64,000 nt of DNA from a virus (IMGVR_UViG_3300027838_000002:18980-82979), one strand, 5' to 3'. Shown: positions 7,795-44,441, counted from the stretch's first letter. Numbers and translations are program-made. Notes: generated from the sequence alone by a model not told the origin.

Positions 7795-9464
7795 ATCCCA
7801 TGAAAGTCCGTTCCATCTGTTGAGTACTGACGATAACTCCGTACCTGACCTTGTGCGGGGGCGTCGGTAGTGCCCTGAAAACGATCCGCAACTTCCTTTG
7901 CCAGAATGGAACCAGTCTGCTTATCCACTCTGTGTGTAGCCTCTGCCGACACAATTTTCACCATGTCACCAGCTATCCTGAGCAGCATAGGTGGCTGCGG
8001 GTCACCCGCTCGCCGCCGCTTGGTGACCTGCATCCGCAGACAGTGATTTACCGGGTCACGATTTCCAAAGCACACACAGAACGATAAGTACATCGCGAAC
8101 GACTTGGACTCACTAGCTTGCGAATGATGTAACAGCTTAGCGGGGGACTTCTCGTTAGCCTCGCCAGAGAACTGATGCATAACCCATACCGGAATATCGT
8201 ACTTCTCGGCGATCTTACGCTTGATCTCATCGGGAAACATGGTGACCAGGTGCCGCAGGTTAGTAACATCACCGAGGCTGTCCCCGATGCGCCGCATGCA
8301 CGCGGCATACACGTAATCCACGACGACTAACGCCGGTCTTGAATCTGTCTCTCGACCGTCACGGGCCACCGCTGCCACAATCTCTTCCACGAATCCAGAG
8401 CCGATATCACCAGGTTGCCCGCCTTGCTGACAAAAGTCCACAATACGCATGCACTTATTGAGCATAGGGCGTGCGTCCACGTATCGCTCGTACTCGCCCT
8501 TGGGCTCCGGGTCCGCCATACGTTCTTCTCTCGTACGATTCGCAAATCGTTCTTCTTCGTACGGCTTGTAGTCACCACGTCGACTCAGGTCGGTTTCCGG
8601 ATCAGTCATGTTCTTGACAGTGTCGAGAGCAATACTCGCCGCGCAAGAAAGCATACGCTGGCGGATATACTCCTCAGTCTGCTCATAGCTGACCAAATAA
8701 ACCTGCCGGGGTGATCTCCCCTCTTCTGCCGCTATCATCATCTCACTCTTCATTGCCTCGACGCAGAGATGTATAGCTAACGTGGTTTTACCGCTGCCTA
8801 GCGGAGCAATCACACCATTCACTTCTCCCGGCGCGTGACCCCCATCCATGTACCGATCCAGGAATTCGAGCCCCGTGGTAAACGATCGCGTTGGTTTTGG
8901 TGTCCAGTCGTCCGGTATACCGGCTTTGACTGGGTTATGTGACACACTGCCGATCTTATTCAGCTGATCGGAAATTGGCTGAAGCAACCCCATCAAGTTT
9001 GATGGAGTACCACTGATGTGTGTGAATATCTTTCGTAACTCATCCGCCACCGTACGCTCTTCCATAAACTGGCGCAGCAGCTGTCGTCCGGTGTCCAGAT
9101 CAAGCTTACCAGGGACCACCCGCTCGAACGTCCAGTACAACATGCCAGGGTCGCTGGGATCCTCGCGCATGATGTTTTCGTACTCTTCACCGGACAGGCC
9201 TTCGGGATCGTCGTTGATCAACTTATCGACCACATCGACCATGGATGTATACGACAATTCACCACCACGTTCATGGAGCATAATTGCTGCGCGCCAGATC
9301 GCCGCGAACCCTAGCTCCTGGGTACTGAAGTGTTCTGGCTTGAGCAGCTTGGCCGCCTCCTGAAAAAGGATTGGATTCGTCAAGATCCGCACCATCAATG
9401 ATTCCAGCATCCGTGGATTAACGCGACCCTGCACGTAGCCTGGGTCCAGTCTTTGCTTGTCCAT
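7791..9464 (-). CDS. DnaB-like replicative helicase
   Basis: TTGLEFLD, APLGSGKTT, SYEQ, VVVDY, MHQFS; directly upstream of the primase. Confidence 0.88.
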   Translation of the reverse strand: MDKQRLDPGYVQGRVNPRMLESLMVRILTNPILFQEAAKLLKPEHFSTQELGFAAIWRAAIMLHERGGELSYTSMVDVVDKLINDDPEGLSGEEYENIMREDPSDPGMLYWTFERVVPGKLDLDTGRQLLRQFMEERTVADELRKIFTHISGTPSNLMGLLQPISDQLNKIGSVSHNPVKAGIPDDWTPKPTRSFTTGLEFLDRYMDGGHAPGEVNGVIAPLGSGKTTLAIHLCVEAMKSEMMIAAEEGRSPRQVYLVSYEQTEEYIRQRMLSCAASIALDTVKNMTDPETDLSRRGDYKPYEEERFANRTREERMADPEPKGEYERYVDARPMLNKCMRIVDFCQQGGQPGDIGSGFVEEIVAAVARDGRETDSRPALVVVDYVYAACMRRIGDSLGDVTNLRHLVTMFPDEIKRKIAEKYDIPVWVMHQFSGEANEKSPAKLLHHSQASESKSFAMYLSFCVCFGNRDPVNHCLRMQVTKRRRAGDPQPPMLLRIAGDMVKIVSAEATHRVDKQTGSILAKEVADRFQGTTDAPAQGQVRSYRQYSTDGTDFHGI

Positions 9465-15932: not shown

Positions 15933-16414
15933 GCGCTGTTACCTCCCAAGTTCATGGCCCTCCCATACGATTTACCATGAGCACCAACTCCAACAGTTGC
16001 TGGCATGACAGTGTGCTCCAGATTGTACATCACATAGCAGTAATTTCTGAGAAACACCTCGCGATCGTAATCGCTAGTCATCATCAGGATTAATTTCTCC
16101 GCCGTGATCAGGGTCACGCGTGCATAGTACAACCCGTCGTAATACACATGAGAATTACGAATAGGAATAGACGCGGCTACCGGTCGATCCATACTTAACA
16201 CTGACCGTAAATCTTCTGCGCTCAATGCACGCGCCAGATAGACTTTCTCACTCGTTGTAAACTTCTCTCTGTAAGAGAGACTTGCCACCAGCGACCCTGT
16301 TTCAAAGCTGATTTCTCCCCAGGGACCAAGTACGATACCAGTATTATCAAGAGTATGATCGTCATCCGAGTCAGTCGGACGCTGTTTGGGTTTCCTCAGC
16401 AGCAGGTACTGCAT
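15929..16414 (-). CDS. Hypothetical protein
   Basis: 161-aa ORF coupled between the sbcD- and sbcC-like genes. Confidence 0.55.
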   Translation of the reverse strand: MQYLLLRKPKQRPTDSDDDHTLDNTGIVLGPWGEISFETGSLVASLSYREKFTTSEKVYLARALSAEDLRSVLSMDRPVAASIPIRNSHVYYDGLYYARVTLITAEKLILMMTSDYDREVFLRNYCYVMYNLEHTVMPATVGVGAHGKSYGRAMNLGGNSA

Positions 16415-17558
16415 TCATATGTTCCCTACGCATTTTGACAAGAAGTTCCCGCAGATCCGTAATACCGGAGCTAGACAGTAGCCGCATCGCTGTCTGGTAT
16501 TCTGCTGAATCAGGGTCCGCCACCAAACCTAGTGCCCCGGCGAGTCCCTGATCAATAACATCACGACGTGCTTGATCTTCAACTTCTGGCGAGTCTTGCT
16601 CAACCGATACCGGGCTCGTAAACAAGTACGCTTGGTCGCCGACCGTGGCGCGAATGCGGTTGTAGACGTCTGGAATAGTGTCCAAGTACGACACTCGGAG
16701 CAACGGCTTCGCGATAACCGCTGGAAGTGAATCCAGACGCTCGCCCTGGTTTACCAGCACGGACAACTCGTGGAGATCATCCTCGTGCTCAATAGCGACC
16801 TCATCGAAATGTCGAGTTTCCAGATTGTGATGCGACATAGAATGGCCTGGCTCGGACGAAATGTCGCCGTCGCGGAAATGGTAGAAGCACTTGTTGGACG
16901 GCTCGGAGATTGACCGCATGCTAATCGAGCCGGGGGAGTACATAGTGAGCTCATCGACATCCGGACCGGCCGGATAACACGCCTCCGTGTGCTCATGGAA
17001 ATCGCCGGTCAACACATGCTTAATCTGCGGCGCACGTACTAACAGCATGCTGAGCTCACACTCAGAGGGTATCCACCCTCCCATGAACTCCGACCAAACC
17101 TGGTGAGCCACCAGCACCGAGGCCTCGTCAGGAATGTTGTCGAAGGCTTCCTCGATGTGTTCTTTGGGCGTCCAATCAAGCCCGTAGAACGTTGCGCCGT
17201 CGATCTCGAACGTCTGCCCATGCACATGCGTGGGCCACGGATGCACACGCATCCACTCAGGTCGCCCATGATCTTCTCCAAGGTTACGTCGCACGCGCTC
17301 GTGCTGGCCCTGGATGAAGTAGACAGGTAGTCCGTCTTCCTGCATCCTGTCCATCTCCCGGCACATCACGTTGACGCTCACGGGATCCGGATCAGGCTTA
17401 TCGAAAAGGTCGCCACCTGCGATCAACGGCAGCTCGTTCTCGATACAGTAATCAACAATCTGCGCCAAACTGTGGTAGGAATCACCAACCATGGTTGGAT
17501 ACTTCACCCACGTCGTGTAGCTCAGATGCCAGTCAGCACTAAAAACGAAACCTGCGAT
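16371..17558 (-). CDS. SbcD/Mre11-like (gp47-like) metallophosphoesterase nuclease
   Basis: FVFSADWHL (upstream of the track start), GGDLFD, QGQHE, AHQ, GDFH, YSPGS; start proposed at ATC 17558. Confidence 0.88.
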   Translation of the reverse strand: MAGFVFSADWHLSYTTWVKYPTMVGDSYHSLAQIVDYCIENELPLIAGGDLFDKPDPDPVSVNVMCREMDRMQEDGLPVYFIQGQHERVRRNLGEDHGRPEWMRVHPWPTHVHGQTFEIDGATFYGLDWTPKEHIEEAFDNIPDEASVLVAHQVWSEFMGGWIPSECELSMLLVRAPQIKHVLTGDFHEHTEACYPAGPDVDELTMYSPGSISMRSISEPSNKCFYHFRDGDISSEPGHSMSHHNLETRHFDEVAIEHEDDLHELSVLVNQGERLDSLPAVIAKPLLRVSYLDTIPDVYNRIRATVGDQAYLFTSPVSVEQDSPEVEDQARRDVIDQGLAGALGLVADPDSAEYQTAMRLLSSSGITDLRELLVKMRREHMNAVPAAEETQTASD

Positions 17559-21808: not shown

Positions 21809-21846
21809 AAAAAGAAGAGACGGCCGGGTGTTACCCCGGCCGTCTT
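21809..21846 (-). terminator. Terminator-like hairpin after solo guide unit 1
   Basis: AGACGGCCGGG-loop-CCCGGCCGTCT followed by a U-tract on the minus strand; duplicated at 22406. Confidence 0.7.
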
Positions 21847-21847
21847 T

Positions 21848-21884
21848 CACGCTTCAATCGTGGTACTCGCAGACCATGTGGTTA
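21848..21884 (-). ncRNA. Solo TIGR-like dual-spacer unit 1
   Basis: Minus strand TAACCA-CATGGTCT-GCGAGTACCA-CGATTGAA-GCGTG. Confidence 0.75.
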
Positions 21885-22405: not shown

Positions 22406-22441
22406 AAAAAGAAAAGACGGCCGGGTGTTACCCCGGCCGTC
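22406..22441 (-). terminator. Terminator-like hairpin after solo guide unit 2
   Basis: Same hairpin as at 21809-21846. Confidence 0.7.
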
Positions 22442-22442
22442 T

Positions 22443-22479
22443 CACGCTCGCGGCATGGTACTCACGTATACCGTGGTTA
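22443..22479 (-). ncRNA. Solo TIGR-like dual-spacer unit 2
   Basis: Minus strand TAACCA-CGGTATAC-GTGAGTACCA-TGCCGCGA-GCGTG, directly after the Nop-domain gene. Confidence 0.75.
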
Positions 22480-23763
22480 CTCTTCAGAAGCTTCGTCCTC
22501 GGAGTCTTCGTCATCCACTTCCGGTGCCGGTGCCGGTGCCGGACGCGGAGCGTACAAGTCGCTAAGCGGCTTGCCACCCAGGTCGTCCGCAAGCGGGAAG
22601 TGCGGAATAGGGATGGTATGCGTGTGCGTACCATCGCCGTGCTCGATAATAAACGGCTTCGGAGGATCTTCCCCGTTGAGATCCACGTACATCACGTGAT
22701 GTAGATGCGACATGAAGATCTTCACCGCATAACGGCGAGCACGCGCATGAATATGCGCCGGGGCAAGCATTACAACGCCGCTACCAGGTGCGCCCTCGTT
22801 CGTGTTGAGGTACGGCAACCGCTTGGCCTGGTCCAGTGCCAGCACCTTAAGCATGGTGTCTGCGGTGTAACAGCCTTTCATCCACTTGGTAGCATAGGCG
22901 TCATCACTACGCTTCTGCTTCGTCAGGATGCTTACTGCCTGGTCCGAAAACGCACCAGCCATATTACGCTCGACCTCCAGGGCCTTCCGAGCCTGGAACA
23001 AATGGCCGTAATCGCAGTCTTCGTGATTTTGAAACTTCACGAAGCACTCGCCCATCTTGAACGCACAAAGCGACTTAAGCTCAGCGTTCCACGGACGCGC
23101 AGCCAGGTACTTCTCCATAGCAGCATACTTCTTGTACTTGGCAAAGCCATCAGACCAAACCTGCTGCAGCCGGACAGGATTAACGTTACACAGCGACGAC
23201 AACTCCGTAGCCAGCGGTAGCGAAAGGGTGCGCGCGGTCTTTTGCAGGTCGACCTGTTGCAACATGCTCTTCGCTTCCTCTTTGCCGTGCCAAGTGCGGG
23301 ACGGATCCAAGCCAGCGAAGCGCCACCACTTGCCCACGGTGGGAGTATTCCTGATATCCAGGTGCGCCAACAACCCAGCAGTAATCACCGGACCGATACC
23401 GTGATTTGACAAACACCATCGTCCAGCTGCGTACGAGGCAGCAAACTCACCCAGCGCACGCTTGATGTCCTCTTCTGCACGCTTAATATTCGCCAGTCCC
23501 CAACAGATGACCTCGTTAGGCTCAGCGTGCTTCTCAGTCTGCCGCTGCTGGCCCCGAAAACGGATACGCACGTTCTGCATCTGGTAGTACATGTCTACCA
23601 GGAACCGCGCCTCCTCGGATCCAAGTTCCGTAGCGGCTTTCCGCAAATCGCTGTCAAGCCTTTCAAGCAGCTCCCACTGAGACGCATCCACGGTTTGGGC
23701 TTCAGTATTCTCGCTAGCATTATCATCGTGTTCTGGCACATCAGGAAAATAAATTGAGCTCAT
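22477..23763 (-). CDS. IS110-related Nop-domain protein, TasA-like (no RuvC or HNH domain)
   Basis: Coiled coil LVDMYYQMQNVRIR; WCLSNHGIGPVITAGLLAHLD..TVGKWWRFAGLDP; PWNAELK; HIHARARRYAVKIFMSHL; no N-terminal DEDD RuvC domain; adjoins dual-repeat units. Confidence 0.8.
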   Translation of the reverse strand: MSSIYFPDVPEHDDNASENTEAQTVDASQWELLERLDSDLRKAATELGSEEARFLVDMYYQMQNVRIRFRGQQRQTEKHAEPNEVICWGLANIKRAEEDIKRALGEFAASYAAGRWCLSNHGIGPVITAGLLAHLDIRNTPTVGKWWRFAGLDPSRTWHGKEEAKSMLQQVDLQKTARTLSLPLATELSSLCNVNPVRLQQVWSDGFAKYKKYAAMEKYLAARPWNAELKSLCAFKMGECFVKFQNHEDCDYGHLFQARKALEVERNMAGAFSDQAVSILTKQKRSDDAYATKWMKGCYTADTMLKVLALDQAKRLPYLNTNEGAPGSGVVMLAPAHIHARARRYAVKIFMSHLHHVMYVDLNGEDPPKPFIIEHGDGTHTHTIPIPHFPLADDLGGKPLSDLYAPRPAPAPAPEVDDEDSEDEASEE

Positions 23764-24736: not shown

Positions 24737-25036
24737 TTAGTTCCACTCAGGCGTCCCTTCGTCGGTCTTAAGCGCTGTGACAAGTTCTGATGGAAACGCT
24801 ACAGGTTTCAAATCAGAATCCTGTACGGTCCAGCCCAGCGTCTGAAAGAGAATCTTGGTCTTTTCCCGAAACTCCGCAAAAGGCGACGGGATGCGCTCGA
24901 TGAGCGTCTTATTCTCGTGATCAATCTCGTATACACAGACTCCTTGCGGAGCTGCCCAAGTAGCACCCTGCTTGGTGGTACGAATTAACTGCTGCCCGAA
25001 TTGGATATCCTCTTCATCGGGTGTCCAGTCTGGCAT
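24737..25036 (-). CDS. Hypothetical protein
   Basis: GGAAG/GAGG RBS; colinear with neighbours. Confidence 0.55.
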   Translation of the reverse strand: MPDWTPDEEDIQFGQQLIRTTKQGATWAAPQGVCVYEIDHENKTLIERIPSPFAEFREKTKILFQTLGWTVQDSDLKPVAFPSELVTALKTDEGTPEWN

Positions 25037-25641
25037 TCTTCTTCCTCACGATACCTGTCAATAGCTCGGTAAATGGTCGCACGGCCTACACCGTAACGAC
25101 GCGCCATCTCGGCTACACAAACACGGCCAGGGCCTGGTTCAAAACGACCCTGATTATAGAACCTCCCTACGATGCCAAGCTGACTGTCCGTCAACTTCCC
25201 CTTACCCTTAGGAAACCTCTTCCGACCCCTCGCGTACTTACGCAAATGCGTAACAGCTTCTGACTTTGTGGCGTAGGCGAGATTGGACGGGTGAAAATTG
25301 TTCGGGTTGCCGTCCAACCGTATTACCTGAAACTTGTCTGCAGGCCGCGGCCCTAAAAAGGCCTCCGACACGATACAGTGGATGCGTCGCGAGTGGCCGC
25401 CATTGCGCGCCTCAACAGCGTGATACAACGTTACCGAGGGATCGCCGGAGCTGGGGAATGGCCAGTGCTTCAGGATACGCGGCTCACCTGCGATGGTACC
25501 GCCGCGCCATGTCACCCAGGAACGCACCCGCCCCTCTGAAGAGACGTCATATCTCCCGCCGTAACCAGGGACCTCTCGCCATTCCTCTACCCGCAGTCCG
25601 ACCTCGGAGCTGCCAACGGGTTGGTGGGTTCGGTCATCCAT
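24985..25641 (-). CDS. NUMOD4-HNH homing-endonuclease-like protein with C-terminal HTH
   Basis: EEWREVPGY..RYDVSSEGRVRS (NUMOD4); IHCIVSEAFLG..VIRLDGNPNNFHPSNL (HNH_3-like); MARRYGVGRATIYR. Confidence 0.82.
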   Translation of the reverse strand: MDDRTHQPVGSSEVGLRVEEWREVPGYGGRYDVSSEGRVRSWVTWRGGTIAGEPRILKHWPFPSSGDPSVTLYHAVEARNGGHSRRIHCIVSEAFLGPRPADKFQVIRLDGNPNNFHPSNLAYATKSEAVTHLRKYARGRKRFPKGKGKLTDSQLGIVGRFYNQGRFEPGPGRVCVAEMARRYGVGRATIYRAIDRYREEEECQTGHPMKRISNSGSS

Positions 25642-26021: not shown

Positions 26022-26391
26022 CACTCCCGCCTTTTGGTACTCTCCGTTCGCTTGGTTGCACGCTCCTGTGTTGGTACTCTCCGCCGCCCTGGTTACACGC
26101 TCGACAAGTGGAACTCGCTCAAGCCATGGTTGCACGCAATGAGGTTGGTACTCGCGGTGATGATGGTTGCACGCATACCTTCTGGTACTCGCAGTCATGC
26201 TGGTTGCACGCCAAAACTTTGGTACTCGCAGCTGGATTGGTTGCACGCGTGGTCTTTGGTACTCGCGAACGACTTGGTTGCACTCCCGTGCTATGGTACG
26301 CGCTCTTGAGTTGGTTGCACGCGGTTCAAATGGTACGCACGCCATCGCTGGTTGCACGCTCATAGTGTGGTACTCGCAGCCGTCACGGTTA
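26022..26391 (-). repeat. TIGR-like dual-repeat array 1 (10 units, 37-nt period)
   Basis: Plus strand alternates TGGTACTCGC and TGGTTGCACGC separated by variable 8-mers; the 10-mer starts at 26035+37n up to 26368. Confidence 0.92.
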
Positions 26392-32548: not shown

Positions 32549-33298
32549 CTAACCTCCTGATGGGTTCAAGTTATAGATTGACACCGCGGGGTGTTCGTCT
32601 TCGGCATCGGGTAAGAAGTCCTCCAATACCAGGTCATTTAACGCGATGCGCGCTTTGCCTGCCATCTGGTCAGCTCCCCAGTTGAGTTCAACGGTGAGCC
32701 TTTCAATCCAGTGGTAGTGGAAAACAAAACCCTGTCGAGACAGGGCTTTCATGGACATCCACAGTGCACGGTTGGCAACAGATTCATTGCTCGCCAATTC
32801 CACCGCTGTCCCCTGGTTTGCTATCACACGACTGTCTGTTACGACGTGTACGTTTAGTGGGCGCTTTTTAGTACCATCTTTCGCAATCTGTCCGCTGTAC
32901 CAAAGCATGGCATGCACGTACGCCATGAGTTCGCCAACATTCACCGTACCGGAGTTCATCGCGCCATACAGCATCTTCCGTGAGCGCGATAAACGATCAA
33001 TGAGAATACATGACCATCCGCAACCAATCCCCCAACCGTGCCCGGAACCATCACCAAATAACAGCACATCCCAGTCCCTGATGTTCAACTGATCAAGGAC
33101 TACACTGAGTGGCGTTCTTTCAGGTTTCCGGTTCTTCTTCTGTCGTTTGCGGGATCGTTGCAGCAAGCTCTTCGAGAGTTGTGATTTTTCTCCCGAGGTC
33201 TTCGATGATCTTTTCTTTTTCCGTGATAGTTTCTTGGCGCTCATTAATGACCTTTGCTTGCTGATCAGCGGTTTCCCCTGCGGCGAAGAGTAATTCAT
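32549..33298 (-). CDS. Ribonuclease HI-like protein
   Basis: LFGDGSG, NVGELMA, VVTDS, HWI, N..AD.MA catalytic D-E-D-D pattern; true start probably downstream of 33120. Confidence 0.8.
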   Translation of the reverse strand: MNYSSPQGKPLISKQRSLMSAKKLSRKKKRSSKTSGEKSQLSKSLLQRSRKRQKKNRKPERTPLSVVLDQLNIRDWDVLLFGDGSGHGWGIGCGWSCILIDRLSRSRKMLYGAMNSGTVNVGELMAYVHAMLWYSGQIAKDGTKKRPLNVHVVTDSRVIANQGTAVELASNESVANRALWMSMKALSRQGFVFHYHWIERLTVELNWGADQMAGKARIALNDLVLEDFLPDAEDEHPAVSIYNLNPSGG

Positions 33299-34390: not shown

Positions 34391-34642
34391 TCAATAATCC
34401 TCTTCGATTGTAACAATTTCCCGTACGATGGTCGTCCGACGTCGCTTAGGTTGTTGCGACCTAAGCTGCTGTCGATTTCGCGAGCGTCCCTGCTTCGCAA
34501 GTGGTTCCGACTTCTTACGTGAAAGTGCCTTGAACGGTGTCGTAACAACATCAACCGCCCAACTTGCTAAGAACTCGATTCCGTCTTCCAATCCCTGTAA
34601 ATCTGACGGGCCCTCATTCTTGTAACGGGACAGATCGGACAT
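34391..34642 (-). CDS. Hypothetical protein
   Basis: MSDLSRYK... with GAGGAGG RBS. Confidence 0.55.
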   Translation of the reverse strand: MSDLSRYKNEGPSDLQGLEDGIEFLASWAVDVVTTPFKALSRKKSEPLAKQGRSRNRQQLRSQQPKRRRTTIVREIVTIEEDY

Positions 34643-36515
34643 GGTAACGTCCTCCTCTGCTTCACGGAACGTAGCCGACATCGTAGCATCGTTCCAAAAT
34701 GATGTAACTGGAGCGCAAGATCTCGGTCTACTGGAGCGCGTAGTTGGACTACGCTCCATGGCCGATCTCCGATGTCTACCCTCCATCGTCCCAATTTTGC
34801 CGCTACTGCTTAATCTGAAGGGAAAGCCGTATACTTTAGAGCAGCACTTCCCATTTAAGCAGTTGTTCCGGAACCACCAACCTCGGCGGGTGGTACTCAA
34901 AACGGGACGTCAGGTATCAAAATCAACGAGCCTGGCAGCGCATGGAGTCGTCGTGTCGAATATGCACGACCACTTCTCCACGCTGTACATTACGCCATTG
35001 TACGAGCAGATTCGTCGATTCTCCAACAACTACGTACGACCATTTGTCGATGAAAGTCCGGTGAAAAATTCGTGGCTGGAGGGCGCGGGATCTGAGCAGT
35101 CTGTGCTCCAGCGCAGCTTCAAGAATAGATCCAGAATGATCTTCTCGTTCGCGCTACTAGACGCCGACCGCATACGTGGTATCCAGGCAGACAAGGTAGC
35201 GATTGACGAAGTGCAGGACATGGACCCTGCGCACATCCCAATTATTCATGAAACCATGTCGGCATCTCCGCATGACCTTGCCCAATACACAGGAACCCCG
35301 AAGACATTGGACAACGCTATCGAAGGGCTGTGGCAGCAAAGTAGCCAAGCCGAATGGTTTATGCGCTGCAATAGCTGTAACACGTGGAATATTCCTTCGA
35401 TGGATTACCACGTGGACAAAATGATCGGGCCAGTCCGCGAAGACATCAGCGCCGATAATCCCGCGGTGGTGTGCTACTCTTGCCAAAAATCCCTCCACCC
35501 CAGGCAAGGACGATGGGTGCATCGCTACCCTGACAAGCGGTGGGATTTTGCAGGGTACCATGTGCCTCAGATCATAATGCCGCTTCACTATTCCAATGCC
35601 GACAAATGGTCAACTCTGCTCGGTAAGCGTGACGGCTGGGGCAGCACGTCACCAAATATCTTCTACAACGAAGTACTGGGTGAAAGCTACGATGTTGGCC
35701 AGAAACTGGTCAGTCTATCGGAGCTCAAAAAAGCTGCATCGTTGCCGTGGAAAAACAATCCGGATGAGCCCGATCCGCAGGCACTTAGCTCGGCGAAGCA
35801 GTATGCAAACCTGGTGCTGGCAATTGACTGGGGCGGTGGTGGAATAGAGGGTGTCAGCTTCACTACTATCGCCGTGCTGGGATGGTCAAGTGGGAAGATT
35901 GACTGCCTATGGGGTAAGCGACTACTGACTCCGCATGATCACGTCGGCGAAGCAATGGAGTGCCTCAAGTGGTTCAAGACGTTCGGTTGTCAATACATCG
36001 CTCATGACTACACAGGTGCTGGCACCGTACGTGAGACGATCATGGTGCAACAGGGTTTCCCTATCAGTCGCCTGCTGCCAATATCCTACGTGCGCGCCGC
36101 CACACATGCGCCCATGTATCACGTACCAGCAACAGTGTTACACCCTCGGGATCATTACCGGGTAGACAAGACCCGAACGCTCCTGTACACCACCACGTCT
36201 ATCAAGCTGGGCCATATACGATTCTTCCAGTACGACCACGAAAACGTCGATAATCCTGGCCTACTCCACGACTTCCTGGCCCTGGTGGAAACGAAGACCG
36301 CATCACGGCAAGCCAGTGACATCTACACGATCACCAGGGCTGCCGGTGTATCCGATGACTTCGCGCAGGCTATGAACATCGGATGTGCTTCGCTTTGGCA
36401 CGTCACTCAATCCTGGCCAAAGTTTGCAGGGGCAGCGCCGCTCACATCAGCTCAGGTTGAGGCGGCAACAGACAGGCGAGAGGATGTGATGGGCGGCTAC
36501 GGGGCTATTCCATAA
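34641..36515 (+). CDS. terL: Terminase large subunit (GpA-like)
   Basis: LKTGRQVSKST (Walker A), IDEVQD (Walker B), TGTPKT, CxxC pairs, FYNEVLGESY, AIDWG and DDFAQA nuclease residues; start may lie further downstream. Confidence 0.88.
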   Translation: MVTSSSASRNVADIVASFQNDVTGAQDLGLLERVVGLRSMADLRCLPSIVPILPLLLNLKGKPYTLEQHFPFKQLFRNHQPRRVVLKTGRQVSKSTSLAAHGVVVSNMHDHFSTLYITPLYEQIRRFSNNYVRPFVDESPVKNSWLEGAGSEQSVLQRSFKNRSRMIFSFALLDADRIRGIQADKVAIDEVQDMDPAHIPIIHETMSASPHDLAQYTGTPKTLDNAIEGLWQQSSQAEWFMRCNSCNTWNIPSMDYHVDKMIGPVREDISADNPAVVCYSCQKSLHPRQGRWVHRYPDKRWDFAGYHVPQIIMPLHYSNADKWSTLLGKRDGWGSTSPNIFYNEVLGESYDVGQKLVSLSELKKAASLPWKNNPDEPDPQALSSAKQYANLVLAIDWGGGGIEGVSFTTIAVLGWSSGKIDCLWGKRLLTPHDHVGEAMECLKWFKTFGCQYIAHDYTGAGTVRETIMVQQGFPISRLLPISYVRAATHAPMYHVPATVLHPRDHYRVDKTRTLLYTTTSIKLGHIRFFQYDHENVDNPGLLHDFLALVETKTASRQASDIYTITRAAGVSDDFAQAMNIGCASLWHVTQSWPKFAGAAPLTSAQVEAATDRREDVMGGYGAIP

Positions 36516-36517
36516 AA

Positions 36518-36739
36518 CACGCGCGGTAGTTGGTACTCGCGAGGAGTTTGGTTACACACCAATATCATGGTACTCACTCAGAACTTGGTTGCACGCAGCT
36601 AGCATGGTACTCGCCTCTGCCGTGGTTGCACGTGCTTCTTTTGGCACTCTCCCCGCACCTGGTTGCACATTCCCCTATTGGTACTCTTCTCGAACCTGGT
36701 TGCACGCACGCAGATTGGTACTCGCTCGTGGTTTGGTTA
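36518..36739 (-). repeat. TIGR-like dual-repeat array 2a (6 units)
   Basis: 10-mer at 36531, 36568, 36605, 36642, 36679, 36716. Confidence 0.9.
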
Positions 36740-36835
36740 CTGCTTCCTGCGCCCGTACCTACAGATGATCAGCGTCGTTATCACGACACAGGCACAGATG
36801 AGCAGGGTCTTCAGGACTTCAGGTGAAACACACAT
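36737..36835 (-). CDS. 32-aa single-TM peptide embedded in the array
   Basis: MCVSPEVLKTLLICACVVITTLIICRYGRRKQ; hydrophobic core and basic tail; absent from the ORF track. Confidence 0.55.
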   Translation of the reverse strand: MCVSPEVLKTLLICACVVITTLIICRYGRRKQ

Positions 36836-36976
36836 CTACTATGGTACTCGCAAGTTTTGTGGTTGCACGCATCGATCGTGGTACTCGCGTCGATGGTGGT
36901 TGCACGCGCTTCTTTTGGTACTCGCGCGACGCCTGGTTGCACGCGATACGCATGGTACTCGCTCGATCAATGGTTA
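36829..36976 (-). repeat. TIGR-like dual-repeat array 2b (4 units)
   Basis: 10-mer at 36842, 36879, 36916, 36953. Confidence 0.9.
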
Positions 36977-37591
36977 TTGACACCATTCGGAATCCCAGAT
37001 CATCTCCACATTCTCACCGTGCAGGATTCCAGTGGGTGAGATGTACGGGCGCCCCAGCCCGATCAGGTCTTCGTACGAGACCTTGAGCCGCTTCTCGGGG
37101 TCGCTGGCTACCACTAGTTCCGAGCAATACAGCGCTTTCACGCCCAGCTCGAACTTGTTGTCGTAGTCCAGGCCCTCAAACGTCAGGCAGGTTTCGACGA
37201 CCTTCTTGACATACTCGCCATCCCAGTCCGTACAGCGCAGGATGACAACCCTGTCTGCCTCGTGGCAGATGTCGTAGAACTCGGACTTCTTGTAGCCGAC
37301 GCGTGTCATTTCGGCAACTTCGAAGCCGCGCTCTGGTGACTTGCTGAGGCACAGCGCAGCGTGAGGCAGTTCCCCCGGGATGATGAAGCTGGTGAGCTTC
37401 CAGTTGTCCTTGGTCAGGAGAATGTCACCTACGCGCAGCAGCTCAAAGCCTTCCCGGTACGTGAAGCCGCGGATGGCGCTGTAGTACGTGTTGAAACGCA
37501 CGTACGGGATCTTGTCGAGGATCCAGTTGTAGAGCCATGTTTCCATGGCCCAGAAGGCAAATCGTGACCAGAGGCTACGTAAGAGTTGCAT
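36974..37591 (-). CDS. Permuted papain-like NlpC/P60 amidase (YiiX/YebB-like)
   Basis: GDILL, HAALC, YD..F....LYCSELV, ISP. Confidence 0.8.
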   Translation of the reverse strand: MQLLRSLWSRFAFWAMETWLYNWILDKIPYVRFNTYYSAIRGFTYREGFELLRVGDILLTKDNWKLTSFIIPGELPHAALCLSKSPERGFEVAEMTRVGYKKSEFYDICHEADRVVILRCTDWDGEYVKKVVETCLTFEGLDYDNKFELGVKALYCSELVVASDPEKRLKVSYEDLIGLGRPYISPTGILHGENVEMIWDSEWCQ

Positions 37592-37596
37592 AGATT

Positions 37597-37855
37597 CACG
37601 CTGCTATTGTGGTACTCGCTGATATCATGGTTGCACGCATTTCTATTGGTGCTCGCCCAGGCACTGGTTGCACGCTTGTTTTTTGGTACTCGCGCGGGTC
37701 CAGGTTGCGCGCCGTCTTCATGGTACTCGCTGCTGGATTGGTTGCACGCTGTGATCGTGGTACACGCGGGTCTGTTGGTTGCACTCTGGGACCGTGGTAC
37801 TCGCGCCGAGTTTGGTTGCACGCAGATATGTTGGTACTCACCAATACTATGGTTA
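37597..37855 (-). repeat. TIGR-like dual-repeat array 3 (7 units)
   Basis: 10-mer at 37610+37n up to 37832. Confidence 0.9.
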
Positions 37856-40762
37856 GAACTCGTCGTCAGGAGGTACTTCGTTGTACCACCCTTCGGCTTC
37901 CGCTACGTCAAAATCACTCTGGGCGTTGTCGTCAGTTTCTTCCGTGGCCTCGTCGTCTGACTCATCGTCTTCCACGACGTCAAAGTTGTCCTCGCGTAGT
38001 CTGTCGTCGGGCATTGGGGCTCCTCCGTAATTTTTTGCTTTATGACGAGAATCGCGATCGCTGAGAATCTCGGTCCACCAGAGCTTGTCCACCCACCAGT
38101 GCTCGGCGTCGTCCCGAATAAGCACCCCTGCGCTGTGCATCTCCTGCGATAGCCGCACCATGTCTAATAACGGTATCTCGGGTACGGTGACAAGACTATT
38201 TATGCGTTTCTTGCTCACCCTGACGTGCTCACCTGATACCGCTATGGCTGGCGCGTGACTCTGTTCGAATTCTTCGTTGATCGTTGTCAGCTTACCTGAC
38301 ACCAATCCGTGGTACACCAGCTCTGCGAAGTAGTCTAGCGGGTCCGGCGCAGAGTCTAACAACGCCGCCGCTTGACGAAATACCGTGTCGTCATTGGTCA
38401 GGTCCCCGAACCATGCTGACATATCCGCGAGCACCGACTCCACGTACGAGCCTGTGTACGTTAAACGAAAGCGGCGGGCCGCCAGGTGCTGTATGTACGC
38501 GGGTAAAATTGGCGCGCCCACACGTTGCAGCGTTCCGCCGACTGAAGGTGCACCATCTACATGGATCAGGTTCCAGCCACCGTTGATCATCAACGCCTGT
38601 GCGTGCTGCGGCAACAGATCAACTATGGCGTTCTTTGCGTCAGGGTGCTGTAGCCAGTCTGCTAGCAGCTTGTTCTTGTACTTGTCACAGCGCAGGTATA
38701 CCGGCCACTGGTGCCGTACAATGGCTGCCGAATTTTTGGCAACAACTCTCTTGAAAGCCCCAAGCGCACTGACATCAGTGGTGATGCAGCCCAGGCTGGT
38801 GGCAGTAGCAGCCCCCAGCGAGGTAGCTGCAGCTCCTAGAAGTACCAACCCCCTGCGATCTTGATGGAGTACCTCTGCAAGCAGATTACTGGTGATGTGT
38901 GCTGCGGTCGCCCAGAATACTGCGGATGATTGACTGGACGCGCCCAGTGTTTTCAGCGTCTCGTGTGGAATATTCCCGGGGGCCTGTAGATCACGTGCCG
39001 GTGTCATTTCAGTCAGGGTATACCAGGCGTCTTGCTCTAAGACGTGTCCGCCAGGGTGTACCTCGAACCGTGGAAACACGAAGCGGTCGTCTACCCACCC
39101 AAACGACTCGATCCCTTTGTTCGATGTTGGTTCGTGGAAACCTTGTGCCAGTCCCAACAGGTGTTGCGACCAACGTGGCTGTATGTTGGGACGACCCATG
39201 CCGTGGCGGGCGAGCAGGTTGCGCAGCCAGGCGCCTGTTTTATTCTCCATAACGCTAGCCAGCTCAGCGAATTCAATAACCTGCTCGTCACGAGTGACGT
39301 TTCCGCGATACTCCGTTACGTTTTCGTCAGGGTAGTAAACTACGTTCTCCAGTCGAATGATCGTGTCGGATAAAATCTCGCCGGAAGCTAGCGTCCAGTG
39401 TCCGTCCTTTTCGAGAACGGTCTTACCGTTTATGGCTATGCTGCGGTGCTTTTCCTTACCCGCGGTCTTTATCTTCTGCAGCTTGTTACATATCGCTTCG
39501 CTGCACTGCTGCATAAACCGCGCCAACTCTACGTCTGACATGTTTAGGTACAGCAGCAGATTCTCACATTCAGCGAGCTCCATCTTTTCCAGCTCGGTTT
39601 CCAGCACGTCTTCCCAGGCCCGCGACTGCCGCACCATCCGCTCCAGCCACTCAACTGGACGACGCCTACTCACGTCGTCAGGAAGGGCACGCAGAGAGTC
39701 ACTCACAGCAATGCGTCCCTTGGCGCACATAGCCTGTTGTATCAGCTCCGGACTTAATTCCGGTGCCCAAATGATGTAGTCGCGGTGGGCTGCATTCTTC
39801 CACACGTGCCTGTTCGAGATACGCCCGTCTATGATTGACCCACATATCGGGAGAGGGGTGTTATTGTCCCGGAGGTGCCGCAGCTGTAGTTTCAACGCTG
39901 TGACCGGGTCGTTCAGTACGAAAGTTGTTGATCCAAACTTCTTGTGTTCGATCGTCAAGGTCTCGTACATAGAGAGCCCTGAATCCCATATCGGGGCCTG
40001 ATCCTTGGTTTCGAACTGGTGCGAAACCACTGGAACACGTTTGAATACAAAGTCGTCCGGAGCCTCGGCATCCCTTCCGATAAACATGAACGCGTGGATC
40101 TTGCCGGGGGCCGTGTAGAACGGGATGACAAGCACGTCGGCCCAATCCTTACCCTTGAATACACGGCCACGCCCAGCGTTGAGCGAGTCGCCTTTTTTGA
40201 GACGGTTTGTGCACATCGTGTGGTGCAGCGCCATGCGTACGTCGTTAGCGTGGCAGCCACCCAGGAACCTCCCGGCACGCTCAAACCAGGTGGACGTCGG
40301 AGTTGCCGCTCGTCCAACTAGTTTCTGGCACAGTTCTACCATCTGTTCGGTGTCCTGCAGCGGAAGGCGTTTTTGCGCGGACTCCCACATATCTTGCAGG
40401 CGCTGACGGTGCCGTATGTGCGCTTCCTCGTATTTTTCCACAGCGATGGGATCCAACACCTTCGAGATTACCGCGATCCCCTGATCACGCAATTTTCGAA
40501 AAACGTTGACGGGGTCTAACCCCCAGGCTTTTCCGGCCAATTCCACCGTATCGCCCGTAAACTGGCACGCGGAGCAGTAGTGCCATTCGCCACCTGATAT
40601 ACTATCCTTGTAGACACGAAGGCCCTGCTGTCGGCATAATGGGCAGCAACACACAGTTGGTAATACCTTTACCGGTATTTCCACGCCCAGTAAGGGCAGA
40701 ACCTGGTCCCAGCTAATATGGTAGTTGAGACTGCAGACTCTCGTGCTTTTGGAGAATGACAT
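37853..40762 (-). CDS. Large protein with N-terminal CHC2-like primase Zn finger
   Basis: CPLC..WHYCSAC..GD.VEL; 969 aa; no clear TOPRIM or Walker motifs. Confidence 0.6.
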   Translation of the reverse strand: MSFSKSTRVCSLNYHISWDQVLPLLGVEIPVKVLPTVCCCPLCRQQGLRVYKDSISGGEWHYCSACQFTGDTVELAGKAWGLDPVNVFRKLRDQGIAVISKVLDPIAVEKYEEAHIRHRQRLQDMWESAQKRLPLQDTEQMVELCQKLVGRAATPTSTWFERAGRFLGGCHANDVRMALHHTMCTNRLKKGDSLNAGRGRVFKGKDWADVLVIPFYTAPGKIHAFMFIGRDAEAPDDFVFKRVPVVSHQFETKDQAPIWDSGLSMYETLTIEHKKFGSTTFVLNDPVTALKLQLRHLRDNNTPLPICGSIIDGRISNRHVWKNAAHRDYIIWAPELSPELIQQAMCAKGRIAVSDSLRALPDDVSRRRPVEWLERMVRQSRAWEDVLETELEKMELAECENLLLYLNMSDVELARFMQQCSEAICNKLQKIKTAGKEKHRSIAINGKTVLEKDGHWTLASGEILSDTIIRLENVVYYPDENVTEYRGNVTRDEQVIEFAELASVMENKTGAWLRNLLARHGMGRPNIQPRWSQHLLGLAQGFHEPTSNKGIESFGWVDDRFVFPRFEVHPGGHVLEQDAWYTLTEMTPARDLQAPGNIPHETLKTLGASSQSSAVFWATAAHITSNLLAEVLHQDRRGLVLLGAAATSLGAATATSLGCITTDVSALGAFKRVVAKNSAAIVRHQWPVYLRCDKYKNKLLADWLQHPDAKNAIVDLLPQHAQALMINGGWNLIHVDGAPSVGGTLQRVGAPILPAYIQHLAARRFRLTYTGSYVESVLADMSAWFGDLTNDDTVFRQAAALLDSAPDPLDYFAELVYHGLVSGKLTTINEEFEQSHAPAIAVSGEHVRVSKKRINSLVTVPEIPLLDMVRLSQEMHSAGVLIRDDAEHWWVDKLWWTEILSDRDSRHKAKNYGGAPMPDDRLREDNFDVVEDDESDDEATEETDDNAQSDFDVAEAEGWYNEVPPDDEF

Positions 40763-44404: not shown

Positions 44405-44441
44405 CACGCAAGCCTGATGGTACTCGTCGGGACTATGATTA
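44405..44441 (-). ncRNA. Solo TIGR-like dual-spacer unit 3
   Basis: Minus strand TAATCA-TAGTCCCG-ACGAGTACCA-TCAGGCTT-GCGTG; spacing identical to array units. Confidence 0.65.

What the first reader, a model, noticed from the sequence alone, without database searches (positions are those of the whole stretch)
36518..37855. Cargo genes sit inside split edge repeats of one 17-unit array
Seen: on the minus strand the order is array 3, GCGTG|AATCT-ATG amidase gene...TAA|CCA, array 2b, GTGTG overlapping the ATG of a 32-aa TM peptide...TAA|CCA, array 2a. Both ORFs replace the centre of an edge repeat (GCGTG-C-AACCA). The amidase gene also looks richer in C/G-ending codons than its neighbours (by eye). 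Inference: cassette-like gene capture at the edge repeat, or processing at edge repeats releases monocistronic cargo mRNAs. I am not aware of this being described for TIGR arrays.
Basis: partly seen in the sequence, partly recalled or inferred. Interest (0 to 1): 0.82.

Follow-up and report, generated by a model that had tools for sequence, protein, structure and literature searches.

The report
Phage genes wedged between guide-RNA arrays
A marine phage packs three short arrays of TIGR guide-RNA units into every gap between an amidase gene, a tiny membrane-peptide gene and their neighbours, so what looked like genes captured inside one array is more likely resident genes surrounded by ordinary arrays.

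Summary
On the minus strand, 7 + 4 + 6 = 17 TIGR dual-repeat units (period 37) are interrupted by a 205-aa C92 amidase gene and a 32-aa peptide gene. Each gene follows GCGTG/GTGTG and ends TAA|CCA. Amidase GC3 is 0.78, the highest of 71 ORFs.

The "split edge repeat" is not special to these genes:
- All 9 TIGR blocks of this 83-kb phage record start T|AACCA. In 8 of them the TAA is the upstream ORF's stop.
- Faure 2025 already says TIGR arrays typically begin and end with truncated edge repeats.
- Stop-fused array starts also follow tas genes in other phages.

Gene capture is not supported:
- 0 of 37 amidase homologue loci show a 30-80-nt tandem repeat within 3 kb.
- Two of them keep the same convergent amidase/terminase arrangement.

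Two short metagenome contigs from a close relative keep every gene/array junction they cover. Nearly all their spacers differ, and one carries an extra 53-aa ORF inside the array. Both nested genes are under purifying selection (dN/dS 0.09 and 0.06). RNA-library contigs join the amidase to units on both sides.

Best reading: resident genes with arrays filling the intergenic gaps, co-transcribed and processed with the help of a TasA-type protein encoded about 13 kb away. Release of separate mRNAs by processing is plausible but untested.

The parts
37597..37854 (-). TIGR sub-array of 7 units ('array 3'). It begins T|AACCA, where the TAA is the stop of the 969-aa ORF, and ends GCGTG 5 nt before the amidase ATG.
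36974..37591 (-). 205-aa Peptidase_C92 (YaeF/YiiX-type permuted papain-like amidase) gene. No SD-like 4-mer upstream. GC3 0.78.
36829..36975 (-). TIGR sub-array of 4 units ('array 2b'). It starts on the amidase TAA. Its last unit holds the ATG of the peptide ORF.
36737..36835 (-). 32-aa ORF: a hydrophobic stretch followed by RYGRRKQ (membrane-peptide character judged by eye). Conserved in relative L004 with 5 synonymous and 1 conservative codon change.
36518..36738 (-). TIGR sub-array of 6 units ('array 2a'). It starts on the peptide TAA and ends GCGTG 2 nt from the stop of the convergent terminase gene. No terminator is predicted after it.
37853..40762 (-). 969-aa ORF with no Pfam or PHROG hit. 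It heads the transcription unit, and its TAA is fused to array 3.
34641..36515 (+). Large terminase subunit (GpA_ATPase domain), convergent with the array/amidase unit.
22477..23763 (-). tas gene: a 428-aa TasA-type Nop-domain protein with no nuclease domain detected. Its TAA is fused to a solo unit.
22414..22478 (-). Solo TIGR unit (22443-22478) followed at once by a 12-bp-stem terminator hairpin, then SD and the next ATG.
21818..21883 (-). Second solo unit (21848-21883) plus a near-identical terminator, behind a 134-aa ORF that also ends GAAGAG-TAA.
26022..26390 (-). 10-unit TIGR array fused to the TAA of a 233-aa ORF (TAACCG).
44405..44440 (-). Solo unit fused to the TAA of a 413-aa ORF (TAATCA), followed by a hairpin and SD.

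Best explanation
The 17 units are three ordinary dual-repeat TIGR sub-arrays of a marine phage. They fill the gaps between resident genes at the tail of one minus-strand transcription unit: 969-aa gene, array, amidase, array, 32-aa peptide, array, then the convergent terminase gene.

Each sub-array starts with the usual 5'-truncated edge repeat (AACCA) and ends with the usual 3'-truncated one (GCGTG). That is why each gene appears to sit in the centre of a split edge repeat. In this compact genome the first AACCA is overlapped with a TAA stop.

The arrays have no detected promoter of their own and are read through from upstream genes. A TasA-type protein encoded at 22477-23763 binds each 36-nt unit, and the boundaries are then cut, which yields tigRNAs.

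Shown: the anatomy, the genome-wide junction rule, the synteny in phages without arrays, and selection on both ORFs.
Inferred: co-transcription (only weak RNA-library support), Tas-dependent cutting, and that the arrays rather than the genes are the newcomers.
For: 1. All 9 TIGR blocks of the 82,979-bp record begin T|AACCA. In 8 of 9 the TAA is the in-frame stop of the upstream ORF (413, 969, 205, 32, 233, 428, 134 and 307 aa). All blocks end GCGTG or a 1-mismatch variant.
2. [quoted passage not shown]
3. Stop-fused array starts occur elsewhere. A strict test found them after 9 of 79 tas ORFs, against 5 of 1828 other ORFs. They also occur in G001/L003 (a TGA inside GAGTGAACCA) and in L128, where a nested 76-aa ORF ends TGA|ACCA.
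4. The amidase family has 237 homologues. Of 37 viral loci, 0 have a 30-80-nt tandem repeat within 3 kb. L017 and L023 keep the amidase convergent with terL; in L023 the gap is 11 nt.
5. Metagenome contigs L004 and L005 come from a close relative (its amidase is 33 of 603 nt different in L004). They keep all five junctions. Only 1 of the 10 L004 units found by the pattern, and none of the 8 L005 units, shares its spacers with the window's homologous block.
6. dN/dS is 0.088 for the amidase (24 synonymous against 7 non-synonymous codon changes in 201 codons) and 0.058 for the peptide (5 against 1 in 32).
7. The tas gene is 34% identical (E 1e-50) to the Tas-like ORF nested in the L003 arrays. 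A family profile hits the TasR RNP structure 9MTY (E 8e-22) and TasH (E 9e-9).
8. Contigs from three metatranscriptome libraries bridge the junctions: array 3 to amidase (37340-37703) and amidase to array 2b (36931-37209 and 36886-37089).
Against: - Amidase GC3 (0.78) is the top of 71 ORFs, which could mean foreign origin. The excess also appears in the two syntenic array-free loci (+0.11 each) but not in the family overall (11 of 30 positive).
- L004 carries an extra 53-aa ORF inside the array that the window lacks, so gene content between units does vary.
- No terminator is predicted after any of the three sub-arrays, unlike the published norm and unlike the solo units.
- The Tas residue equivalent to the catalytic Tyr289 of SpTasH is Phe here (Y 22, F 7, W 1 of 30). 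The His is kept in 29 of 30. Self-processing is therefore uncertain.
- The RNA-library contigs are shallow (depth 2.8-4.5) and could be carried-over DNA.
- Relatives are known only as contigs of 1.2-1.8 kb.
Confidence: 0.65

Rival explanations
1. Functional punctuation. The placement is not mere compaction. Cutting at unit boundaries is used to control the flanking genes.

Because the conserved unit AACCA...GCGTG is exactly 36 nt, the 5' cut would fall inside the TAA (T|AACCA). That would leave the upstream mRNA, including the tas mRNA itself, without a stop codon or a protective hairpin. The amidase mRNA would be left with a 5-nt leader.
For: - Unit length is 5+8+10+8+5 = 36 nt, equal to the published mature tigRNA length.
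- 8 of 9 blocks are fused to stops.
- Neither the amidase nor the peptide has an SD-like 4-mer upstream. The GCGTG-AATCT-ATG junction is identical in L005.
- In G001, tas starts 8 nt after GAGTG and another gene's probable ATG directly follows the last AACCA.
- The solo unit lies between the tas stop and its terminator.
Against: - No RNA ends were mapped, and the contigs cannot show ends.
- Faure 2025 reports that minimised arrays needed full edge repeats for processing, and the block ends lack them.
- Only 28 of 75 ORFs have an SD-like 4-mer (background 15%), and tas and the 969-aa gene lack one too, so a missing SD is not distinctive.
- The nested gene in L128 has its own strong SD.
- About a third of same-strand gene gaps are 10 nt or less in any case (29 of 90).
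Confidence: 0.22
2. One reading: one 17-unit array captured the amidase and peptide genes as cassettes by recombination at the centre of edge repeats.
For: - The flanking halves add up to one edge repeat.
- Amidase GC3 is an outlier.
- An extra ORF lies inside the array in relative L004.
- Units and half-spacers are shared between arrays at different loci, so recombination among arrays does happen. A-A and B-B near-matches number 3 each against 0.3 expected. L004 units match the record's array at bases 8908-9239, outside the window, at 74% over 273 nt.
Against: - The same halves bound every block, including solo units behind unrelated genes, and are the published norm.
- The amidase/terL neighbourhood exists without arrays.
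- The extra ORF in L004 is not bounded by edge-repeat halves. It follows an edge repeat, 8 nt and its own SD, and ends TAA-A-CAACCA.
- No empty site appeared in the one DNA run laid (no joints).
Confidence: 0.08
3. The small ORF, or both ORFs, are not expressed genes but chance frames or decaying remnants between arrays.
For: - The peptide is only 32 aa.
- Its ATG lies inside a TIGR unit.
- It has no SD.
- It has no homologue apart from the one in L004, either in the 83-kb record or in the loci held when one search was run.
Against: - 5 of the 6 codon differences from L004 are synonymous. My own binomial estimate, assuming a quarter of changes are synonymous, gives about 0.005.
- The amidase has 237 homologues with invariant His77 and Cys156 and dN/dS 0.09.
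- The peptide region has no RNA structure signal (z = 0.08).
Confidence: 0.05

Closest known systems
Dual-repeat TIGR-Tas systems (Faure et al. 2025, Science, PMC12045711; Xu et al. 2026 preprint, 10.64898/2026.09.09.750476)
   Same: - Alternating edge (GCGTGCAACCA) and loop (GCGAGTACCA) repeats with two 8-nt spacers.
- A 36-nt core unit.
- Truncated edge repeats at array ends.
- Both repeats end in CCA.
- A Nop-domain Tas protein of the TasA type.
- A phage host.
   Different: - The period is 37, not 36.
- At least 9 blocks, including solo units, are spread over 83 kb. The arrays studied here lie about 13 kb from tas.
- Blocks are fused to the stop codons of 8 different genes.
- No terminator follows the three sub-arrays.
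- Non-tas protein genes lie between sub-arrays.
[quoted passage not shown]
   Same: A protein gene lies between two dual-repeat arrays.
   Different: There the nested genes belong to the system. Here they are a C92 amidase and a 32-aa peptide with no evident link to Tas. I could not see fig. S14, because supplements are closed.
Intragenic tigRNAs inside tas coding sequence (Xu 2026, section read)
   Same: Guide units overlap coding sequence, and the authors raise a link between tigRNA maturation and translation.
   Different: Here only the stop codon (2 nt) or, for the peptide, the start codon overlaps a unit, and the genes are not tas.
3'-UTR-derived bacterial small RNAs and tRNA punctuation of mitochondrial transcripts (recalled, not searched)
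   Same: Small RNAs are cut out of mRNA precursors directly after coding regions.
   Different: A different protein machinery is involved, and no processing data exist for this locus.

Membership tests
Dual-repeat TIGR array | Two distinct alternating 8-12-nt repeats separated by spacers of about 8-9 nt, with a unit of about 36 nt | tested here: met
   An 11-nt edge repeat, a 10-nt loop repeat, 8-nt spacers, a 36-nt core and period 37. There were 22 full matches against 0 in shuffles.
Dual-repeat TIGR array | Box C/D-like motifs: repeats start with UG and end with CCA (as stated for TasR arrays) | tested here: inconclusive
   Both repeats end in CCA. The edge repeat has TG (GCG-TG-CAACCA). The loop repeat has AG at the matching place (GCG-AG-TACCA) (consensus; rule).
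Dual-repeat TIGR array | [quoted passage not shown] | tested here: inconclusive
   Truncated ends are present in all 9 blocks. Strong terminators follow the solo units at 22443 and 21848, and a hairpin follows the one at 44405. None follows the three sub-arrays studied.
Dual-repeat TIGR array | An associated Tas protein with a Nop domain | tested here: met
   The 428-aa ORF at 22477-23763 hits 9MTY (TasR RNP) and TasH chains, alone and as a profile. It is 34% identical to a Tas-like ORF nested in the L003 arrays. Pfam Nop itself gave no hit.
Dual-repeat TIGR array | Processing into 36-nt tigRNAs bound by Tas | not testable with these tools
   Only assembled RNA-library contigs were available. 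The Y/H dyad is F/H in this Tas.
Peptidase_C92 (YaeF/YiiX permuted papain-like amidase) | A match to PF05708 above the gathering score, and conserved Cys/His | tested here: met
   47 bits against a cut-off of 27. His77 and Cys156 are invariant in 23 aligned sequences. That these are the catalytic pair is recalled, not tested.
Gene-cassette capture system (integron-like) | Cassettes bounded by a recombination site, with presence or absence varying at the same site among relatives | tested here: not met
   The boundaries are generic array ends. The relative keeps both genes. No empty site was found. The one variable ORF, in L004, has different boundaries.
Gene-cassette capture system (integron-like) | A dedicated site-specific recombinase | not tested
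   No search for an integrase was made. Only about 20 of the record's ORFs were scanned against Pfam or PHROGs.

The most novel reading that the evidence does not exclude
TIGR units serve as RNA punctuation of phage transcripts. Tas-dependent cutting at the 36-nt unit boundaries falls inside the TAA stop codons of eight genes, tas itself included. Each act of guide-RNA maturation would then turn the upstream message into a non-stop, hairpin-less mRNA and release the amidase on a 5-nt leader. That would couple guide production to feedback on tas and to the timing of the nested genes.
Probability: 0.2. Interest if true: 0.8.

Novelty: new variant of a known kind. Interest (0 to 1): 0.5.

Why it matters
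TIGR-Tas biology is young. Published surveys look for arrays around tas, and they state that it is unknown how arrays arise, expand and gain spacers.

This phage shows four things:
- Arrays and single units can sit far from tas, fused to the stop codons of unrelated genes. Surveys centred on tas would undercount them.
- Protein genes can be interleaved with sub-arrays.
- Between two phages whose amidase genes differ by about 5% of nucleotides, almost all units differ while every junction is kept.
- Units and half-spacers recur between arrays at different loci.

The last two points are natural-population evidence for unit-level turnover and exchange. The layout also makes the question of whether guide maturation cuts and regulates host mRNAs directly testable on a 1.4-kb fragment.

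Tried and rejected
- **Self-targets.** A tandem-spacer search ([A][rcB] and [rcB][A], gaps 0-3, at most 1 mismatch per half) in the 83-kb record gave 10 near-hits. My own estimate of the chance number is about 8. None was perfect.
- **Close relatives in IMG/VR.** The exact repeat pattern gave 0 hits. Peptides of the 969-aa protein gave 0. A looser pattern gave L003, which has related repeats, and L002, which has a single 5-mismatch unit.
- **Metagenome scan.** Of 9 loci, 4 are real relatives (L004, L005, L007, L010). The other 5 have 0-1 unit and look like chance.
- **Genome-contig scan.** All 10 loci have 0-1 unit, so there is no host clue.
- **Pfam Nop in the record.** No hit. PHROGs calls Tas a "transposase".
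- **Paralogy of the genes upstream of the two spacer-sharing arrays.** Not related.
- **GC3 excess as a family trait.** Rejected: 11 of 30 positive, mean difference about 0.
- **Missing SD as a special mark.** Rejected.
- **Identity of the last 2b unit as evidence of selection.** Rejected. At 5.5% divergence about 2 changes are expected in 36 nt, so 0 observed is not significant.
- **Automatic array-start finder.** It was too crude: 82 arrays, many without a clear phase. Only the stricter test is used, and it misses cases seen by eye (L066, L068).
- **The L106 "array" at 8784-9245.** It is a coding repeat.
- **Read laying.** No joints, no ends and no loose ends. Parts without RNA-contig cover (969-aa end, peptide, array 2a) are not interpreted.
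- **Literature search.** Too generic to be useful.

Full report
**What is there**

The window is bases 18980-82979 of an 82,979-bp viral record, rated about 40% complete. The studied stretch is held by seawater and marine metagenome runs: 20 runs from 17 studies are listed, and 6 of them may be the source.

Read on the minus strand, the region is a dual-repeat TIGR locus. The consensus is GCGTGCAACCA-N8-GCGAGTACCA-N8 with period 37. The full repeat pattern occurs 22 times in the window and 0 times in 100 shuffles.

The stretch holds three blocks: 37597-37854 (7 units), 36829-36975 (4) and 36518-36738 (6). Between them lie a 205-aa ORF (36974-37591) and a 32-aa ORF (36737-36835). GCGTG-AATCT-ATG opens the first ORF, which ends TAA|CCA. 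GTGTG overlaps the ATG of the second, which also ends TAA|CCA.

The upstream 969-aa ORF ends TAA|CCA too. The last unit ends 2 nt from the stop of the convergent large terminase gene, 34641-36515 (GpA_ATPase). Only 7 bases between 36516 and 37852 are neither ORF nor unit.

**The two ORFs are genes**

The 205-aa protein matches Peptidase_C92 (E 3.9e-12). It has 237 homologues at E ≤ 0.001, many covering 97-99% of its length. His77 and Cys156 are invariant in 23 aligned sequences. Against the relative L004 it shows 24 synonymous and 7 non-synonymous codon changes in 201 codons, dN/dS 0.088.

The 32-aa ORF shows 5 synonymous changes and 1 Ile-to-Val change against L004, dN/dS 0.058. Its region has no RNA-structure signal (z = 0.08).

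GC3 is 0.78 against 0.60 ± 0.058, the highest of 71 ORFs.

**The split edge repeat is the normal end of a TIGR array**

Scanning the whole record gives 9 blocks, all on the minus strand:
- the three blocks above;
- a 10-unit array at 26022-26390;
- solo units at 21848-21883, 22443-22478 and 44405-44440;
- outside the window, a 9-unit array at record bases 8908-9239;
- a short block ending at record base 16461.

Every block begins T|AACCA. In 8 of 9 the TAA is the in-frame stop of the upstream ORF. In the ninth the ORF ends TAG 9 nt earlier. Every block ends GCGTG or a one-mismatch variant.

Two solo units are followed at once by near-identical strong terminator hairpins, then an SD and the next ATG. 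The third has a different hairpin.

[quoted passage not shown] AACCA...GCGTG is 36 nt, which is the published length of mature tigRNAs. Any gene lying between two arrays will therefore look as if it replaces the centre of an edge repeat.

**The Tas protein**

Pfam Nop gave nothing. The 428-aa ORF at 22477-23763 is 34% identical (E 1e-50) to a 297-aa ORF nested in the arrays of another phage, L003. It hits 9MTY at E 1.2e-8. A profile of 30 family members hits 9MTY at 8e-22, TasH chains at 9e-9 and IS110-type transposases. The paper's data statement says 9MTY is the TasR RNP.

The family is large, with 2004 representatives at E ≤ 0.001. No nuclease domain was detected, so I class the protein as TasA-type. 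Xu 2026 reports that such proteins act as RNA-guided transcription repressors (abstract and sections read).

The catalytic pair of SpTasH for pre-tigRNA cutting is Y289/H296 (NAR 2026, passages). It maps to F371/H380 here. The Tyr column reads Y 22, F 7, W 1 of 30, and the His column reads H in 29 of 30. Whether this Tas cuts on its own is therefore open.

**Relatives: junctions fixed, spacers replaced**

A metagenome scan for the repeat gave 9 loci, of which 4 are real relatives.
- L005 holds the end of the 969-aa homologue, an 8-unit array and the amidase start, with the identical GCGTG-AATCT-ATG. There the ORF stops at TGA, one codon before TAATCA.
- L004 holds the amidase 3' part (33 of 603 nt different), then TAA|CCA, then the 10 units found by the pattern, then the peptide ORF ending TAA|CCA.

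None of the 8 L005 units shares spacers with the window's 7-unit block. Only the last L004 unit, the one that holds the peptide's ATG, equals a unit of the window's 4-unit block.

L004 units instead resemble units of the record's own array at bases 8908-9239 (74% over 273 nt). Within the record, near-identical half-spacers recur between arrays: A-A 3 and B-B 3, against 0.3 expected each. Arrays therefore turn over and exchange units much faster than the genes diverge (dS about 0.21).

L004 also has a 53-aa ORF with its own SD inside the array. The ORF is hydrophobic, by eye. It is absent from the window's record. Its boundaries are not edge-repeat halves.

L010 and L007 are homologous to the regions around the 26022-26390 array and around the start of the array at record bases 8908-9239. 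In both, the gene/array junction is conserved.

**The amidase looks resident**

Thirty-seven viral loci encode homologues at 30-67% identity. None has a tandem repeat of period 30-80 within 3 kb. In L023 the homologue is convergent with terL with an 11-nt gap. In L017 the same pair is about 1 kb apart.

The neighbourhood seen in the window therefore exists without arrays, which argues that the arrays filled the gaps rather than that an array captured the gene. The GC3 excess is not a family trait (11 of 30 loci positive), but it appears in just these two syntenic loci at +0.11 each. I leave that unexplained.

**The same geometry in other TIGR phages**

In G001, the complete 122-kb record of L003, arrays flank tas and a second array lies 59 kb away. 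The first edge repeat, GAGTGAACCA, holds the TGA stop of the upstream ORF. The tas gene starts 8 nt after GAGTG. The remote array ends GAGTGAACCA and is directly followed by the probable ATG of the next gene.

Among 80 further Tas loci, 53 have period 33-41 arrays by TRF. A strict test finds an array starting within 8 nt of the stop after 9 of 79 tas ORFs, against 5 of 1828 other ORFs. At least three of those five are real cases. L128 has a nested 76-aa ORF with an SD whose TGA is fused to ACCA.

[quoted passage not shown] I found no mention of stop-codon fusion, remote or solo units, or nested non-tas genes. This rests on searches and on in-paper finds 24 and 39. Supplements could not be read.

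**Expression**

No promoter-like site lies inside the region on the minus strand, and no terminator follows the three sub-arrays.

Contigs from three metatranscriptome libraries bridge array 3 to the amidase (37340-37703) and the amidase to array 2b (36931-37209 and 36886-37089). Depth is 2.8-4.5, and there are no joints. This fits read-through transcripts. Contigs cannot show strand or ends, and DNA carry-over is possible.

**How it most likely works**

Shown:
- the anatomy;
- the genome-wide junction rule;
- conservation of the junctions;
- selection on both ORFs;
- a TasA-type protein in the record.

Inferred:
- The arrays are transcribed as part of the 969-aa/amidase/peptide message.
- Tas binds each 36-nt unit, and the boundaries are cut by Tas, by a host RNase, or by both.
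- The 17 tigRNAs guide TasA to targets that are not in this record. The search found 10 near-hits, about the number I estimate by chance.

A by-product, or a purpose (the punctuation rival), is that the message is cut at each junction.

**Verdict**

The capture reading is not supported, and the processing reading is open. The locus is a new architectural variant of a known system. It is of moderate interest, mainly for what it says about where TIGR units can live and how fast arrays turn over.

Noticed in passing
window 21818-21883 and 22414-22478: There are two near-identical modules, each made of GAAGAG-TAA, a solo TIGR unit, an 11-12-bp terminator hairpin and GGAGGAG. They sit behind tas and behind a 134-aa ORF. 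The flanks match, but the spacers are completely different. This looks like a duplicated gene-end module in which the spacers were replaced in place.
   Followed up: partly
record bases 16383-16430 (L001) and L005 1451-1498: A non-unit element of about 48 nt (TAGYCTTACTTCTGGTYAGTAACACGCC...) sits inside TIGR arrays at two unrelated places, with 87.5% identity. Its function is unknown.
   Followed up: no
window 26022-26390 versus record bases 8908-9239 (L001): Two arrays behind unrelated genes share several units with near-identical spacers, for example GGGCGGCG/ACACAGGA against GGGCAGCG/ACACAGGA. Other pairs share only one of the two spacers, which suggests shuffling at the half-unit level.
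   Followed up: partly
L004 925-1086: The relative carries a 53-aa ORF with a strong SD inside the array between the amidase and the peptide. It is hydrophobic and looks like two membrane helices by eye. It is absent from the window's record.
   Followed up: partly
window 24985-25641 (-): A 218-aa HNH_3 + NUMOD4 + HTH protein of the homing-endonuclease type lies a few hundred bases downstream of the 10-unit array.
   Followed up: no
window 22477-23763 (-): The Tas residue that aligns with the catalytic Tyr289 of SpTasH is Phe. It is Phe in 7 of 30 family members and Trp in 1. The His is kept.
   Followed up: partly
G001 (record of L003) 69.2-69.6 kb; L050 880-1345: A second phage with a 34%-identical Tas also has a remote array 59 kb from tas. 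The array ends flush against the next gene's probable ATG.
   Followed up: partly
window 32549-33298 (-): A 249-aa ORF has a weak RNase H match (E 8.8e-5, below the Pfam cut-off).
   Followed up: no
L001 about 16200-16330 (-): The ORF after the short block ending at record base 16461 reads like a cold-shock protein (MAFGEITKLTDRGFGFIK...). This is by eye only and was not searched.
   Followed up: no
window 36974-37591; L017 and L023: The amidase GC3 excess (+0.18 here) recurs at +0.11 in the two array-free loci where the homologue is next to terL, but not across the family. This is unexplained.
   Followed up: partly
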